From a virus (Duplodnaviria > Caudoviricetes): DNA of 56,248 nt. Shown here in pieces: positions 24,819-42,800 of this stretch. The stretch lies in IMG/VR virus record IMGVR_UViG_3300033149_003977, positions 1 to 56,248 of that record, one strand, 5' to 3'. The notes under the pieces are model-generated. The model did no database searches and had not been told where the DNA came from. It saw only the letters and a program-made list of their open reading frames with translations. The first letter of the stretch is position 1. Every line of letters starts with the position of its first letter. The translations under genes and the position numbers were made by a program.

Positions 24819-25259
24819 ATGGCTTGCGTCGGACGGTATGCGACGGCGGACGAGTTCGCGCAACACTTTTGCATGGATTTACCGCTCAGTGCAGAACAAC
24901 AAGCGGCCATTGAACGGAATTTAGATTTGGCAGCGAGTGAAGTCCACGCGGCAATGGCCGCGAACGATATGTGCGATTGCACGCTGGCAGGATGGGCGAC
25001 GACATATCTCAAGACGTTGAACATCCGCGCCGCCGCCGCGCTCTATGATTGTGAATGCGGACGTCCACATCTGACGAATGAGGAACGGCGCGACATCATT
25101 GACTGGACGCAAAACCTGTTGGAAAATGTGCGTATGGGGAACATCGAATTGTGCGACGGGGAAACCGGACGTGAATATCCTGTGGCCGACGCGATAGAGA
25201 TGGCCGTGGACGAATTTTCGACGGCCAGGATCATTTACAACACCAGACGACGGAGCTAA
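24819..25259 (+). CDS. Head-tail adaptor (Mu gp36-like)
   Basis: RYATADEF N-terminus, helical, LLENVRMGNIEL; synteny. Confidence 0.65.
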   Translation: MACVGRYATADEFAQHFCMDLPLSAEQQAAIERNLDLAASEVHAAMAANDMCDCTLAGWATTYLKTLNIRAAAALYDCECGRPHLTNEERRDIIDWTQNLLENVRMGNIELCDGETGREYPVADAIEMAVDEFSTARIIYNTRRRS

Positions 25260-25264
25260 AGAAT

Positions 25265-25531
25265 GTGGGATGAGGCGGCAAAAACAGACGACTGAGGTCA
25301 GTCGAAAAAATAGTAACGCCACGGATTATCTTTGGTCAAGAGGGACTTGTCCTGCTCAAGTATCTTGGCTCGTTCAATGGACGATGGCGCGGGGTCTGTA
25401 CCGAACACCTTTACGAGTTCCGCCGAGAGCAGCGGGAACAATACGTTGATAGACGTGACGTGGAAGGATTCCTGGCGGCCAAAAGGTCAGAAGATGAGCA
25501 ATTATTTGAGGTGGTGAAACACGAATGGTAG
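25265..25531 (+). CDS. Candidate selenoprotein, 88 aa, with in-frame UGA at codon 3 (MG-U-GGKNRRL...)
   Basis: GGAG RBS at 25252-55, GTG GGA TGA GGC..., frame then open to TAG 25529-31 overlapping the next ATG; SECIS-like hairpin follows the UGA. Confidence 0.72.
25274..25320 (+). promoter_or_regulatory. Bacterial SECIS-like element
   Basis: Upper stem CGACUG/CAGUCG with AGGU loop 21 nt after the UGA; lower stem GGCG/CGCC. Confidence 0.68.
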
Positions 25532-33400: not shown

Positions 33401-35940
33401 TCGGGACGTTGAATGACGCTATCGGATATAAGCGAATCAAGGAACTTGACAAGACAGCCACACGTTTTCGGCGGATGATCGAAGCCGTTATGGTGGATTT
33501 CACGGCGATTAAAAATGTCGATTTGCCCGACATGGATGCATGGAGCGCGAACATCGTCCGTGTCGGTGTGGCGATGGTGAATGCGTTGACGACGCTCGTA
33601 GCAACTACCGGTCAATCGAGTCTCAAACTCGCAGCGCGGTTCGCTGACATCGTGAAAACTATCTTCTCATTCGTGCAGGATGGCGTGGACGTCTTGGCGA
33701 CCTTGGCTGAATATACACCAGTGCAAAATATCGGGGCGAAGATCGAGAATTTCGTCGCTCGGATGATGGAGGTCATTCCAGCCCTCCGTGATCTGGCTCA
33801 CGCTTACGACAAAGGGAAAATCGAGTACGCAAATACGATCTTGACGGCGATGAAAGGTGTTACCGACATCGTGAAACCTGGCATCGATGCGATCAAGGCA
33901 TTGGTCGATTACAACGTGGTCAAAAGTCTGAGTGCAAAGGCGCAGAATTTCAAGGATCGTCTCATGGAAATCGTGAACGTCCTCTCAGAGACGGCAGACG
34001 ATTGGGCAACCGAGGCGATGCAAGCGGCGGCGGAGTTTTACGACGCGGCGACGAACGTCCTTGGAATTGTGCAACCTGGCATCGAAGCCATCGTGAACCT
34101 GACCGAATACGACGAACAGGAATCCCTCCAAGATCGCGTGACCAATTTGCGTAGTCGGCTTATGGAGATTGTAGATACACTGAAAAAGAGTTGGGATGAA
34201 TTTGACCAAGATGGAGTAAATGCAGCGAAGGTATTTTATGAAGCAACTCAAAATATCGTCAATATCGTCAAACCGGCCATTGATGCCATCATCACTATGG
34301 TTAGTTACGAAGTGCAAGAATCAGTAAAAGAACAGGTTGAGAACATGCGCGCGCGACTCATGGAAATCGTAGATGCATTGAAGGAGGGTTGGGAAAATTT
34401 CGACACCGAAGGGGTCGAGAGTGCACAGGCATTTTATTCTGCTGCACAAACCATGTTCGGAGTCGTAAAACCGGCCATCGACGCCATTACCGCATTGACC
34501 GATTATACGCGAGTGGCGAATTTGGCGCAAAAAGTGACCATGTTCAAACTTGATCTTCACATCATCGTGGACAGCATGGACGAACTTGCCGATCAATTCA
34601 TCGGACGTGGGTTGCCGGACAGTGCCGAAACCGCGGCGGCTATGCAAACTATCGTCGGAGTCGTGAAACCGGCAATCGACGCGCTGGCGCTTCTAGCCGT
34701 GTATCCGAAGCGATCCAGGCTTAACGAGAATATGGAACAGTTCAAGACCGATCTTCACAGTTTGCTCGGCAAGATCAACAAACTCGCTCAGCACTGGGCG
34801 ACGGTCGGGTTGGGCGCAGCGCAGACGTTCTCCGACTCCGTGACCAAAACATTCGGGTTTATAAAACCGGCCATCGCCTTGCTCGGCGTGCTTGCCAAGT
34901 ATCCGAAAAAAATCAAATTAAATGTGACGATGGAACGGTTCAAAAAAGACCTGCAAAATTTGCTCTTGAAAATAAACAAGATGGCCAAAAGTTGGCTGGG
35001 ACAGGGTACGACGGACGCAGAAAATTTCTCTCAGGCCGTGCAAACCATCGTCGAATTCGTGAAACCGGCCCTCGACGCGCTTGACGAGATGGCGAAATAC
35101 AAGAGCGGCGAACTCGCGGGAGCGATGCAGGATTTCGCCGACGACATATTGGATTTGGTCGATACGATTCAAACCTCTGCGCAGCGCGTGGCGTTGGCTC
35201 AATTTGACGCCGGGGTGCTCGCGCAAACGGTCATCACTATTTCACAGGCGATAAGAACTGGTCTGGACGCAACGATTGTAGAAATGAGCAGCGCGGGATT
35301 CGATGCGGCGATGTTCCGAAATACTCTCGCCTCAATCGTTGAGGACATTTTGTATTCAATCACAGCGGCCACGACCGCGTTGACTTCGGGAACCGAAATA
35401 TCTGATTTCACCGATGCGGTAGGCGGGATTGTGACGGGAATTCAAGAAGCGTTCGATGAATTGACGACGCTGGGCAGCGGTGGAATAAGCCAGGCCATGA
35501 CTGAGTTCGTGAACGCGATCAAACAAGGTCTAACCAACGGACGATTTGCTGTAATTGACGGCATTCAAAAAATCATTGCCGACATGGCCGGACTCAATCA
35601 TGTATTTTACAACACCGGCTGGCAAGCTGGAAATAATTGGATTTCCGGTTTGATTTCAGGAATGCAAGCTAAAACTGCTGAAATGGAGCGGGTTGCCACT
35701 AACCTCGGATCGATAGCGAACGACGCCTTCGCGTCAGCTCCACCGCCGGACGCGCCAGGCAACACGCAATCGCGCAGTGTGGATATGACGACCACACGTC
35801 CCCTCGCGGCGGCAACTACCTCGATTTCACGGAGCGTGAGCGTGAATATCGGGAATGTGACGATCAGCAACGGCATGGATCTGGCTGAATTCCGGACGAC
35901 AATCAGAGATGAAATAATAAACGCACTGGGAGGTGACTGA
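30427..35940 (+). CDS. Tape measure protein
   Basis: 1837 aa, Ala/Ile-rich helical repeats, GRLSPMIIDNLGI, GDWEGAW, LGIGSPSKVM. Confidence 0.92.
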   Translation: MQKIGLAAVMDMTSFTKGMTAYNKGLGIMSNNTSKAGKLISTSLKVIGGVTVGAATAIGAIGGAAMKLASDARAIPGITAAFNNLGGSIERMRAGSAGMIADVDLMKEFNRAATLVSQDFAQKLPDAMQYLQRVSAATGDDMGYMLNSLTLGVGRLSPMIIDNLGIQVKLSDAYEVGAKALGKSVKEMTKAEQQTALMNMVMAKLEEKYGAVPGLAGTAAQSFASLNVTLKNVKDAIGVALIPAMNELLKPLSELAGVTGDKVVAWAQKIGPILAKTVANGVTTATKAINAIIKTFDRLTEKISYVIGVAKAGFAGSGVAGGAAGFLAALGIPENITATIHGILTKVESAIRTGIDKIRTALSGAGGVVGFGETIFETLKANLPASFRTIIEEIIPELIGTLIELPNRVIAGFQEGGISGGFSALLEGVFDVAGGIRNIRQGILTGLLEIGQTLLTKLGEMFPDLQPFIETFLQPILGMGQRILTIVFDLQAQIGPALGQIFSAALPMLQTIIGNVMRIIEAAIPVVQEFVGSAISSLINAFQNLAPIVGQASTVIADLAVQAFPILATIISKVLDLIPNLIPIIGSLVDIFGTVASVVLRVAGDVFPKVIDVVTRVAGIISQHMPAIQSIVEMAMSAIEAAWNAVWPVASMVVDVAMKTVENVINQVIPVILKIANDVFPKVVEAVQKLGSVVREHLPQIQSIIETAMSVISTIIDRALTIILAIWNAVWPVLSNVVDAALGAIGPIVSGVLNTVEGIINTVMSVIQGDWEGAWNGIKDILEGVWDIIVSVIEGAQDLIKAAIEGIIGMSEEELQAAAQGWLESAGEWIENLVAGIENGATDITDKIEWMIDVVIMEVKKKATEFIKIGDDIVQGIVNGITGAIGSVKAAAKKVADAIPTGVKKLLGIGSPSKVMAQVGLETMLGLVKGIDAGEAKVMKTVSKVVKEVIGSFERILDLQERMGGTPGQLPEKIAEWLSGFTTVVRKIIDAIGTLNDAIGYKRIKELDKTATRFRRMIEAVMVDFTAIKNVDLPDMDAWSANIVRVGVAMVNALTTLVATTGQSSLKLAARFADIVKTIFSFVQDGVDVLATLAEYTPVQNIGAKIENFVARMMEVIPALRDLAHAYDKGKIEYANTILTAMKGVTDIVKPGIDAIKALVDYNVVKSLSAKAQNFKDRLMEIVNVLSETADDWATEAMQAAAEFYDAATNVLGIVQPGIEAIVNLTEYDEQESLQDRVTNLRSRLMEIVDTLKKSWDEFDQDGVNAAKVFYEATQNIVNIVKPAIDAIITMVSYEVQESVKEQVENMRARLMEIVDALKEGWENFDTEGVESAQAFYSAAQTMFGVVKPAIDAITALTDYTRVANLAQKVTMFKLDLHIIVDSMDELADQFIGRGLPDSAETAAAMQTIVGVVKPAIDALALLAVYPKRSRLNENMEQFKTDLHSLLGKINKLAQHWATVGLGAAQTFSDSVTKTFGFIKPAIALLGVLAKYPKKIKLNVTMERFKKDLQNLLLKINKMAKSWLGQGTTDAENFSQAVQTIVEFVKPALDALDEMAKYKSGELAGAMQDFADDILDLVDTIQTSAQRVALAQFDAGVLAQTVITISQAIRTGLDATIVEMSSAGFDAAMFRNTLASIVEDILYSITAATTALTSGTEISDFTDAVGGIVTGIQEAFDELTTLGSGGISQAMTEFVNAIKQGLTNGRFAVIDGIQKIIADMAGLNHVFYNTGWQAGNNWISGLISGMQAKTAEMERVATNLGSIANDAFASAPPPDAPGNTQSRSVDMTTTRPLAAATTSISRSVSVNIGNVTISNGMDLAEFRTTIRDEIINALGGD

Positions 35941-42743: not shown

Positions 42744-42800
42744 CGCGAAACCGAGGTTTTCAACCTCGGTCGTCGGGAAAGCGGCCCGACCTGATGAGCG
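42744..42800 (+). ncRNA. Hammerhead ribozyme, type II
   Basis: cgc-GAAAC-stem III (cgagg/cctcg)-GUC-stem I (gtcggg/cccgac)-CUGAUGA-gcg; complete catalytic core. Confidence 0.88.

What the first reader, a model, noticed from the sequence alone, without database searches (positions are those of the whole stretch)
25252..25531. Hidden phage selenoprotein gene: in-frame UGA plus SECIS hairpin in the neck operon
Seen: the 265-nt gap between the adaptor and the gp10-like gene is filled exactly by RBS-GTG-GGA-TGA-GGC-GGC-AAA..., open for 85 more codons (LVLLKYLGSFNGRWRGVCTEHLYEFRREQREQYVDRRDVEGFL) and ending over the next ATG. There is no ATG/GTG/TTG in this frame until near the end. A hairpin CGACUG-AGGU-CAGUCG has its loop 21 nt after the UGA, closed by a GGCG/CGCC lower stem. 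Established: bacterial SECIS elements lie directly 3' of the UGA with a G-containing apical loop; E. coli fdhF has AGGUC at its apex. Many other genes here stop at TGA, so this is not global recoding. Inference: MG-Sec-GGK, probably a Cys position in homologues. The phage would borrow host SelABCD, making a morphogenesis-operon protein and coupled downstream translation selenium-dependent.
Basis: partly seen in the sequence, partly recalled or inferred. Interest (0 to 1): 0.92.

Follow-up and report, generated by a model that had tools for sequence, protein, structure and literature searches.

The report
Phage gene likely encoding selenocysteine
A small gene in the head-tail assembly region of this uncultured phage has a UGA "stop" as its third codon, exactly where relatives have an invariant cysteine, and an RNA hairpin follows it, so it most likely encodes selenocysteine, which I found described for no virus of bacteria.

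Summary
An 88-codon frame (25265-25531) fills the 265-nt gap, with GTG-GGA-TGA at its head, and its next canonical in-frame start is codon 66.

The frame is a real gene. It belongs to a large uncharacterised family: 749 representatives at E<=1e-3, with no Pfam or PHROG match. Full-length members start MGCCGG, MACCG, MGCGC or MCKGR.

The TGA aligns with the family's invariant N-terminal Cys. I found TGA at that position in nine deeply diverged lineages (15 records) and Cys in eleven. The stop there is always TGA, never TAA or TAG.

The peptide after the TGA (Gly-Gly plus a basic stretch) fits a profile built only from Cys forms better than about 99% of random or shuffled controls.

A hairpin with a G early in its loop lies 15-23 nt after the TGA in 8 of 9 TGA lineages by a strict script, and in the ninth by RNAfold. 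It occurs in 2 of 11 Cys lineages (Fisher p=0.003).

TGA is an ordinary stop elsewhere (26 of 65 ORFs). The phage has no tRNA-Sec or selB.

Best reading: a phage selenoprotein made with host SelABCD (about 0.75). The host is unknown and there is no expression evidence.

Earlier agents of this scan flagged phage selenocysteine candidates in other protein families, not this one.

The parts
25252..25255 (+). Shine-Dalgarno-like GGAG, 9 nt upstream of the GTG start
   Evidence: Read directly. Purine-rich SD-like motifs sit at the same place in most relatives; L012 has no clear one.
25265..25267 (+). GTG start codon of the small gene
   Evidence: It is homologous to the ATG/GTG/TTG starts of the relatives, which lie 0-5 nt after the stop of the upstream gene.
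25271..25273 (+). In-frame TGA at codon 3, proposed selenocysteine codon
   Evidence: It aligns with the invariant N-terminal Cys of the family. TGA stands at this position in nine lineages and is never TAA or TAG.
25274..25277 (+). 5' arm (GGCG) of the lower stem
   Evidence: RNAfold MFE and centroid structure.
25289..25304 (+). Upper stem-loop CGACUG-AGGU-CAGUCG (loop 25295-25298), proposed SECIS
   Evidence: 6-bp stem, 4-nt loop with G at position 2, 21 nt after the UGA, -7.1 kcal/mol on its own.
25317..25320 (+). 3' arm (CGCC) of the lower stem
25265..25531 (+). Whole gene: 88 codons (M-G-U-G-G-K-N-R-R-L-R...) plus TAG
   Evidence: Translation. Family membership: 69.5 bits, E 8e-23, against a profile built only from Cys forms.
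25337..25528 (+). Conserved small beta-rich domain (residues 25-88)
   Evidence: Alignments. AlphaFold2 mean pLDDT 85.4; residues 1-20 are of low confidence.
25525..25531 (+). ATGGTAG overlap between the stop of the small gene and the start of the next gene

Best explanation
The frame 25265-25531 is a real late gene of the phage, lying between the head genes and the tail genes. It encodes an 88-residue member of a large, uncharacterised family of small phage proteins. Family members have a flexible N-terminal arm that carries an invariant Cys motif followed by Gly and basic residues, and then a compact beta-rich domain. In this phage the first Cys codon is UGA.

Proposed mechanism. The ribosome starts at GTG 25265. 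At codon 3 the host's SelB, loaded with Sec-tRNA(Sec), binds the hairpin 25289-25304 and inserts selenocysteine instead of terminating. The product begins M-G-Sec-G-G-K.

What is shown: the TGA is conserved, it aligns with Cys, the peptide after it is homologous to the family, hairpins co-occur with TGA, and TGA is an ordinary stop elsewhere.

What is inferred: that the residue inserted is Sec, that SelB reads the hairpin, and what the selenol does. The selenol may form a redox-active or metal-binding tip, or a cross-link, on a virion or assembly protein.
For: 1. Cys/TGA pairing. In A3 (12 sequences) the TGA column is invariant Cys. Database members start MGCCGG, MACCG, MGCGC, MCKGR and similar. 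Matched pairs exist: M-G-C-G-G (L051) against M-G-U-G-G (window, L001 group, L069), and C-G-C (L107, P0007) against U-G-C (L082, L102).

2. TGA conservation. TGA stands at the position in nine lineages and 15 records: the window, the L001 group, L012, L042, L053/L055, L061, L069, L082/L083 and L102. It is always TGA. The best identity of any row to the window is 37%.

3. The region after the TGA is coding. Against a profile built only from 46 Cys forms, the read-through N-termini score higher than versions that start downstream: +3.4 bits (window), +5.4 (L001) and +7.6 (L012). Random stop-free segments reach the real score in 7, 10 and 3 of 1000 trials; shuffles do so in 6, 6 and 0 of 1000.

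4. No canonical start before codon 66 in the window. By my reading of the codons printed, L061 also has none before the conserved domain.

5. Hairpins of the published bSECIS class (criteria read in the Fig. 2 legend of PMC13188914). 8 of 9 TGA lineages have one by the strict script and L053 has one by RNAfold; 2 of 11 Cys lineages do. Fisher one-sided p=0.0027, or 0.009 without the window and L012. Seven of the loops start 18-23 nt after the UGA. Against per-locus backgrounds, P(>=8 of 9)=7e-8.

6. TGA is a normal stop. It ends 26 of 65 ORFs in the window and other long ORFs in 8 of 9 loci of TGA lineages.

7. No tRNA genes, and no tRNA-Sec or selB, so the host machinery would be needed.
Against: - The host is unknown, so nothing shows that it has SelABCD. 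There were no relatives in the genome collection and none in the named-phage collection.
- There is no expression, read or proteomic evidence. No sequencing run was listed.
- No Rfam SECIS family matches.
- The window's bare hairpin is -7.1 kcal/mol, just short of the published -7.5. At -7.5 applied to bare contiguous hairpins only 6 of 9 TGA lineages pass. I chose the -6.0 threshold after seeing the window.
- Fold z-scores of single sequences are not significant.
- RNAalifold on a MAFFT alignment gave no usable consensus, so there is no compensatory-change proof.
- L012 is ambiguous. Its TGA frame is open to the end of the contig, and a strong SD plus ATG lies downstream.
- The lineages may share one ancient TGA. 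The tree needs about four changes of the label, but its well-supported branches force only one. The lineage counts are therefore not fully independent.
- I know of no described example of Sec at codon 2-3, and none was searched for.
Confidence: 0.75

Rival explanations
1. The UGA is decoded, but not as selenocysteine. Either a near-cognate tRNA reads it (leaky readthrough stimulated by the hairpin), or SelB delivers Cys from a tRNA(Sec)-like tRNA(Cys); I recall that such tRNAs have been reported in some bacteria. The product would carry Trp, Cys or Arg at residue 3.
For: All the evidence that translation runs through the TGA fits this reading equally well. The host and its Sec machinery are unknown.
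Against: The aligned residue is an invariant Cys, so Trp or Arg would destroy the motif. The hairpins have the loop composition and spacing of SelB-type elements. Simple leakiness needs no hairpin at a fixed distance.
Confidence: 0.1
2. The start, Gly codon and TGA form a two-codon upstream mini-ORF, and the real protein starts downstream. In the window the start would be the near-cognate ATA 25310, 11 nt after the GAGGU that sits in the hairpin loop. In relatives it would be in-frame GTG or ATG codons. The N-terminal Cys arm would then simply be absent.
For: Several relatives have a canonical in-frame start between the TGA and the domain: L001 GTG, L014/L016 ATG, L012 ATG with a strong SD, L042 GTG, and L069, L082 and L102 GTG. 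GAGGU lies in the window's hairpin loop. Gene callers produced such truncated proteins.
Against: The window has no canonical start before codon 66, and ATA is a very poor initiator (recalled). The positions of the downstream starts are not conserved between lineages. The stretch between the TGA and those starts is in frame, free of stops and homologous to the family's linker. A mini-ORF would tolerate TAA or TAG, yet only TGA is seen. This model does not explain why hairpins accompany TGA forms and not Cys forms.
Confidence: 0.08
3. The N-terminal arm is a decaying remnant. A Cys codon mutated to TGA independently in several lineages, and the gene is a pseudogene or makes nothing useful.
For: TGY to TGA is a single base change. 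One Cys form (L051) still has a hairpin, so switches between the two states do happen.
Against: The domain is intact and conserved in all nine lineages. The four variants of the L001 group keep codons 1-6 invariant while the 60 nt upstream diverge strongly. No frameshift or further stop has accumulated after the TGA in any lineage.
Confidence: 0.04
4. A programmed frameshift from the out-of-frame ATG 25263 (10-codon ORF; -1 at GCA-AAA-A) or from ATG 25270 (+1 at AAA-AAT) into the main frame, with the hairpin as the stimulator.
For: ATG 25263 lies 7 nt after the GGAG. An A-run lies 5 nt before the hairpin.
Against: The L001 group has no out-of-frame ATG at its head, and I saw no shared slippery site in the other printed heads by eye. 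The heptamer is not of the classical X XXY YYZ form. The product would lack the conserved Cys/Sec position.
Confidence: 0.02
5. The phage or its host reads TGA as a sense codon throughout (code 4 or 25).
For: With TGA read as Gly the head would be MGGGG, a plausible Gly run.
Against: 26 of 65 ORFs end at TGA and the gene map is contiguous under code 11. There is no suppressor tRNA. The aligned residue is Cys, not Gly or Trp.
Confidence: 0.01

Closest known systems
Bacterial selenoprotein genes with an in-ORF SECIS read by SelB (prototype E. coli fdhF; consensus model as given in the review PMC13188914, of which I read passages)
   Same: An in-frame UGA. Cys-containing homologues at that position. 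A stem-loop just 3' of the UGA with a small loop carrying G in its first two positions, 15-23 nt after the UGA (the model asks for 16-37). UGA used as an ordinary stop elsewhere in the genome.
   Different: The gene is carried by a phage, not a cell. The protein family is uncharacterised and is not a known oxidoreductase. Sec would be residue 2 or 3, right after initiation. No Rfam SECIS model matches. SelABCD of the host could not be examined.
Poxvirus selenoproteins (molluscum contagiosum and fowlpox glutathione peroxidases, as described in PMC8310308, of which I read passages)
   Same: A virus-encoded selenoprotein that depends on the host's Sec machinery.
   Different: Those are captured cellular GPx genes with eukaryotic SECIS elements. 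This is a phage-specific family with a bacterial-type element inside the ORF.
Stop-codon-recoded phages (TAG or TGA reassigned in late genes; recalled, no paper read here)
   Same: An in-frame stop codon in a late phage gene.
   Different: This gene has a single TGA. TGA terminates 26 of 65 ORFs. There is no suppressor tRNA.
Vicinal-cysteine or Cys-Sec redox tails such as the Gly-Cys-Sec-Gly end of mammalian thioredoxin reductase (recalled)
   Same: A flexible terminal arm with G-C-C-G, G-U-G or U-G-C motifs, in which Sec and Cys interchange between homologues.
   Different: The arm is N-terminal, not C-terminal. There is no reductase domain. A redox function was not tested.
Phage selenocysteine candidates noted earlier in this scan (AI notes, other protein families)
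   Same: The same signature: a TGA at a Cys position with a hairpin after it, in uncultured phages.
   Different: A different protein family.

Membership tests
Bacterial-type selenoprotein gene (UGA + bSECIS + SelB) | In-frame UGA inside a frame that is coding on both sides | tested here: met
   Start codon and SD lie upstream. The peptide after the UGA fits a profile built only from Cys forms better than about 99% of controls, in three lineages.
Bacterial-type selenoprotein gene (UGA + bSECIS + SelB) | Cys-containing homologues align with the UGA | tested here: met
   Invariant Cys column. 68 of 150 representatives have a Cys in their first 8 residues. Eleven Cys lineages were seen at the DNA level.
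Bacterial-type selenoprotein gene (UGA + bSECIS + SelB) | UGA conserved in at least two different sequences (criterion used in PMC1088965, of which I read passages) | tested here: met
   Nine lineages and 15 records, all TGA.
Bacterial-type selenoprotein gene (UGA + bSECIS + SelB) | bSECIS: loop 3-9 nt, upper stem 4-16 bp, G in the first two loop positions, 16-37 nt after the UGA, MFE <= -7.5 kcal/mol (PMC13188914, Fig. 2 legend) | tested here: inconclusive
   Window: loop 4 nt (AGGU), stem 6 bp, spacing 21 nt. The bare hairpin is -7.1 kcal/mol, but the fold with the lower stem is -14.7. Across lineages, 8 of 9 pass at -6.0 and 6 of 9 at -7.5 by my simplified script. The published program itself was not available.
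Bacterial-type selenoprotein gene (UGA + bSECIS + SelB) | Hairpin goes with UGA forms and not with Cys forms | tested here: met
   8 of 9 against 2 of 11 lineages, Fisher p=0.0027.
Bacterial-type selenoprotein gene (UGA + bSECIS + SelB) | selA, selB, selC and selD present in the translating cell | not testable with these tools
   Host unknown. The phage carries no tRNA-Sec or selB.
Bacterial-type selenoprotein gene (UGA + bSECIS + SelB) | Selenium shown in the protein | not testable with these tools
   This needs 75Se labelling or mass spectrometry.
Rfam bacterial SECIS families | Match to a curated covariance model | tested here: not met
   No SECIS match at E<=10 in five loci and none at gathering score in the window. 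Bacterial SECIS elements are poorly conserved, so this weighs little.
Genome-wide TGA reassignment (code 4 or 25, or a stop-recoded phage) | TGA common inside genes and rare as a stop; a suppressor tRNA present | tested here: not met
   TGA ends 26 of 65 ORFs. No tRNA genes.
Programmed ribosomal frameshift | Conserved slippery site and an overlapping upstream frame in relatives | tested here: not met
   I saw no shared slippery site or out-of-frame start in the heads printed for the relatives, by eye.

The most novel reading that the evidence does not exclude
This is a genuine phage-encoded selenoprotein family. It is a small protein of the virion-assembly module whose only selenocysteine is residue 2 or 3, so SelB must act on a ribosome that has only just left, or still sits on, the start codon. 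The host's selenium supply would then gate whether the protein is made at all. Cys and Sec forms have interchanged within the family, which suggests that the selenol gives the N-terminal arm a chemistry that sulfur cannot match, for example a cross-link or metal site that stays stable under reducing conditions.
Probability: 0.6. Interest if true: 0.85.

Novelty: new variant of a known kind. Interest (0 to 1): 0.8.

Why it matters
In the papers I could search, selenoproteins are described for cells and for a few poxviruses, but not for bacteriophages.

- A phage structural-module gene that needs the host's selenocysteine machinery would tie phage production to a trace element.
- It would add a new family to the prokaryotic selenoproteome.
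- It shows that gene callers systematically truncate such genes. 62 of the 150 listed representatives lack the N-terminal Cys, and three of them match lineages verified here as TGA forms.
- Sec at codon 2-3 offers a compact natural test of how close to the start codon SelB-dependent decoding can work.
- The very short N-terminal tag (M-G-U-G-G plus a hairpin) could interest people who engineer selenoproteins.

Tried and rejected
Searches that found nothing:
- Named-phage collection, by DNA and by protein: no match.
- Genome collection (prophages, host names): no relative.
- Viral contigs with the small protein itself or small alignments of it: no confirmed relative.
- Word-based protein search with the window's domain: no candidate.
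- Sequencing runs: none was listed, and no RNA holder was listed.
- Rfam: no SECIS or any other family.
- Pfam and PHROGs: nothing for the small protein or its neighbours, apart from the capsid.
- ESM Atlas: only unnamed viral clusters, all scoring below 0.9.
- PDB by sequence: nothing.
- Foldseek against PDB and BFVD: no hit at E<=1e-3.
- VIA-align wide search: best Z 5.2. The weak rows include B. subtilis YqbF (Z 4.9) and the lambda gpFI C-terminal domain (Z 4.3). These are leads only.
- RNAalifold on a MAFFT alignment of 11 regions downstream of the TGA: no usable consensus, because the hairpins differ in sequence and offset.
- Paper search for the N-terminal motif: it returned only primer strings.

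Considered and rejected:
- Assembly error: the TGA is present in 15 records.
- Global recoding.
- Frameshifting: no conserved site.
- A canonical downstream start: none before codon 66.

L004, a relative in its neighbouring genes, lacks the small gene altogether.

Supplementary files of papers were not consulted.
Full report
THE OBSERVATION

The window is a complete 56,248-bp virus record with direct terminal repeats, and nearly all of its genes lie on the plus strand. Between the ORF that ends at TAA 25257-59 and the ORF that starts at ATG 25525 lies a 265-nt gap.

In that gap the frame that starts at GTG 25265, nine nt after GGAG, reads GTG GGA TGA GGC GGC AAA and so on. It stays open for 85 codons after the TGA and ends at TAG 25529-31, which overlaps the next start as ATGGTAG.

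After the TGA, the first canonical start in this frame is GTG at codon 66. Only near-cognate codons lie before the conserved part: CTG at codon 10, ATA at 16, ATT at 21 and ATC at 22.

The upper stem-loop is CGACUG-AGGU-CAGUCG at 25289-25304, closed by GGCG/CGCC. The fold is -14.7 kcal/mol for 65 nt, with z -1.88. One such hairpin is not rare, though: hairpins of this class follow 4-11% of positions in the window.

IS IT A GENE?

Neither Pfam nor PHROGs recognises the product. A relative found through the downstream gene changed the picture. This is L001, a 63-kb IMG/VR contig. It has a homologous small ORF at the same place, and upstream of the start that would be called by code 11 it reads, in frame, ATG GGT TGA GGC GGG GGA.

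Using the downstream gene as an anchor, I collected 25 metagenome loci and later 80 viral loci. A tblastn and HMM scan of these, with stops read as X, found the small gene directly upstream of the anchor in 18 of the first 36 loci. It also found it in 16 of the 80 later ones, 14 at E<=1e-3 and two weaker.

A profile of 12 members, searched against 1.84 billion representative proteins, found 749 hits at E<=1e-3 and 77 at E<=1e-10. This is a large family without a name.

THE FAMILY

Of the 150 listed representatives, 68 have a Cys in their first 8 residues, typically MGCCGG, MACCG, MGCGC, MCKGR or MCNC. Another 62 start further in, and about 20 carry the domain inside a longer protein.

Of the four sampled longer proteins that had Pfam hits, three are family-2 glycosyltransferases (P0033, P0060, P0049). 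P0034, a full-length Cys form, instead carries a helix-hairpin-helix domain. The motif is kept internally as ...Y-x-G-E-R-P-M-G-C-C-G-G.

After the Cys motif come Gly and basic residues, then a domain of about 60 residues. AlphaFold2 on a 72-sequence alignment gives mean pLDDT 85.4: a small beta-rich domain with one helix, and a low-confidence N-terminal 20 residues. No structure search gave a convincing relative.

THE TGA ALIGNS WITH CYS

In the first alignment the TGA column, read as C, is the only invariant N-terminal column. At the DNA level I saw TGA at this position in the following lineages:

- window: GTG GGA TGA GGC GGC
- L001 group, five records: ATG GGT TGA GGC GGG
- L012: GTG CCA GGC TGA GGG
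- L042: ATG TGA GTG
- L053 and L055: GTG GGT TGA GGC GGT
- L061: TTG TGA GGC GGG
- L069: ATG GGT TGA GGA GGG
- L082 and L083: ATG GCT TGA GGC TGC
- L102: ATG GGT TGA GGC TGC

That makes nine lineages in 15 records. The stop is TGA in every one. In the lineages where the upstream gene was seen, the start codon lies 0-5 nt after that gene's stop, and most have an SD-like motif (L012 has no clear one).

Cys forms were seen in eleven lineages: L006, L017, the L021 group, L032, L034, L043, L047, L051, L052/L107, L088 and L106.

Matched pairs stand out. M-G-C-G-G (L051) pairs with M-G-U-G-G, and C-G-C (L107, P0007) pairs with U-G-C (L082, L102).

Two truncated database representatives, P0107 and P0140, correspond to the L102 and L082 lineages, and P0003 corresponds to the L001 group. 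At least some of the 62 truncated entries are therefore miscalled TGA forms. I could not fetch DNA for the rest, and one of them (P0085) matches a Cys form that has an internal Met, so not all of them need be TGA forms.

IS THE STRETCH AFTER THE TGA TRANSLATED?

I built a profile from 46 full-length Cys forms only. Read-through versions of the window, L001 and L012 proteins score 3.4, 5.4 and 7.6 bits higher than versions that start at the next usable codon. The alignments reach profile position 6-7.

Replacing the extension with random stop-free segments from the same loci reaches the real score in 7, 10 and 3 of 1000 trials. Shuffling the extension does so in 6, 6 and 0 of 1000.

In the four variants of the L001 group, codons 1-6 are invariant although the 60 nt upstream diverge strongly. 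Codons 4-15 show 2 synonymous and 2 non-synonymous variable codons out of 12, against 28 and 20 out of 83 in the rest of the gene.

Downstream in-frame starts exist in some lineages, but at different places. The window has none before the domain, and by my reading of the codons neither does L061. Translation through the TGA is therefore the simplest reading.

THE HAIRPIN

The published consensus for bacterial SECIS elements has four criteria: a 3-9 nt loop, a 4-16 bp upper stem, G in the first two loop positions, and 16-37 nt between UGA and loop with MFE <= -7.5. I read this in the Fig. 2 legend of PMC13188914.

My simplified script accepts contiguous stems only and evaluates the bare hairpin. 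At -6.0 kcal/mol it finds such a hairpin after the TGA in 8 of 9 lineages:

- window: 21 nt, loop AGGU
- L001 group: 15 nt, AGUC, and a second hairpin at 33 nt, GGUGU
- L012: 19 nt, GGG
- L042: 20 nt, AGUU
- L061: 18 nt, CGUG
- L069: 19 nt, GGC
- L082: 18 nt, GGGC
- L102: 23 nt, GGU

L053 fails only because its stem has a 1x1 internal loop. RNAfold places its loop, AGUA, 18 nt after the UGA.

At the published -7.5, applied to the bare hairpin, 6 of 9 lineages pass. I chose the looser threshold after seeing the window's -7.1, and that must be kept in mind.

After the aligned Cys codon, only 2 of 14 Cys-form loci have such a hairpin, which is 2 of 11 lineages (L051 and L088). Fisher one-sided p is 0.0027. 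It is 0.009 if the window and the ambiguous L012 are left out.

Per-locus background rates are 7-17% for spacing 15-37 nt and 2-5% for 18-23 nt. These give P(>=8 of 9)=7e-8 and P(>=7 of 9 at 18-23 nt)=6e-10. Both figures assume independent lineages, which the tree cannot guarantee.

Within the L001 group, the only changes in the two hairpins are one-sided and keep pairing. I have no double compensatory change. RNAalifold on a MAFFT alignment was uninformative, and no Rfam SECIS model matches.

NOT A CODE CHANGE, NOT AN ERROR

- TGA ends 26 of 65 plus-strand ORFs in the window, against TAA 29 and TAG 10.
- TGA ends other long ORFs in 8 of 9 loci of TGA lineages.
- The window has no tRNA gene.
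- Neither the window nor the complete relative behind L001 has tRNA-Sec or selB.
- The TGA is present in 15 records, so it is not an assembly error.

HOW DEEP IS THE TGA?

In a tree of 27 domain sequences, the window's closest row is 37% identical. The Sec/Cys label needs four changes (bootstrap range 3-5), but well-supported branches force only one. There was either one ancient TGA kept over great divergence or several switches. Both fit a functional codon, and the data do not decide between them.

WHAT IS NOT KNOWN

- The host. The genome collection and the named-phage collection gave nothing, so the presence of SelABCD cannot be checked.
- Expression. No run was listed.
- The status of L012. 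Its TGA frame is open to the contig end, and a strong SD plus ATG follows.
- What the protein does. Its position, directly before the same downstream gene in every locus and among head and tail genes (the capsid gene matches PF25209), suggests a virion or assembly role.
- What the arm does. A flexible arm with vicinal Cys or a single Sec suggests redox chemistry, metal binding or cross-linking. This is inference only.

COMPARISON WITH WHAT IS KNOWN

The signature is that of bacterial selenoprotein genes: a Sec/Cys pair, a conserved UGA and an in-ORF hairpin. The setting is what differs. The gene is phage-borne, the family is new, and Sec would be residue 2-3.

In the held library I found no paper on a bacteriophage selenoprotein.
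- Three full-text searches returned none in their listings.
- The 2026 review of the prokaryotic selenoproteome does not contain the words phage or virus (passages read).
- A 2021 review of viral recoding names only poxvirus selenoproteins (passages read).

Papers in subscription journals and supplementary files were not searchable.

Earlier agents of this scan noted the same signature in other phage protein families. Those notes are unchecked leads and are not counted as evidence here.

VERDICT

- Observation: confirmed.
- Best explanation: a phage-encoded selenoprotein read with host SelB, confidence about 0.75.
- Main rivals: decoding of the UGA by something other than Sec-tRNA (0.10), and a mini-ORF with a downstream start (0.08).

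Noticed in passing
L051:1171-1416: A Cys form that starts M-G-C-G-G, the exact Cys counterpart of the window's M-G-U-G-G. It still has a SECIS-like hairpin (GGAGCGC-GGC-GCGUUCC) 23 nt after the Cys codon, possibly left over from a recent Sec-to-Cys switch.
   Followed up: partly
L012:3-107: The frame that holds the TGA in L012 is open to the contig's 5' end and encodes a hydrophobic stretch (…MWWLVVLGLVAALVPG) just before the TGA. This is either a separate small membrane protein ending at that TGA or an N-terminal extension of the family protein.
   Followed up: partly
proteins P0033, P0060, P0049 and about 20 others; L017:1208-1543: The small domain also occurs inside longer proteins, after a family-2 glycosyltransferase. 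The motif …Y-x-G-E-R-P-M-G-C-C-G-G is kept internally, including the Met, which may mark an internal start.
   Followed up: partly
window 25263-25295 and 25270-25449: Two out-of-frame ATGs overlap the head of the gene. ATG 25263 opens a 10-codon ORF and lies at the best distance from the GGAG. ATG 25270 opens a 59-codon ORF. Both could compete with the GTG start, and neither is conserved in the L001 group.
   Followed up: partly
L001:2616-2640 and the same place in L013, L014, L016: The L001 group has a second, stronger hairpin (GCGGGCC-GGUGU-GGCUCGC) 33 nt after the UGA. Its loop holds the in-frame GTG/ATG that gene callers take as the start.
   Followed up: partly
window 1-56248: Rfam at gathering thresholds finds no RNA family anywhere in the window. 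The type II hammerhead that another first-stage note proposed at 42744-42800 therefore does not reach the curated score.
   Followed up: no
L042:1268-1276 and L061:1221-1229: In two lineages the TGA is the second codon (ATG-TGA, TTG-TGA). Sec would have to be inserted while the initiator tRNA is still in the P site.
   Followed up: no
L006 record (G002) 35430-35578: The 85-kb phage that carries a Cys form has two adjacent tRNA-like genes. They match the tRNA-Sec model only below its cut-off (33 and 28 bits against 47).
   Followed up: no
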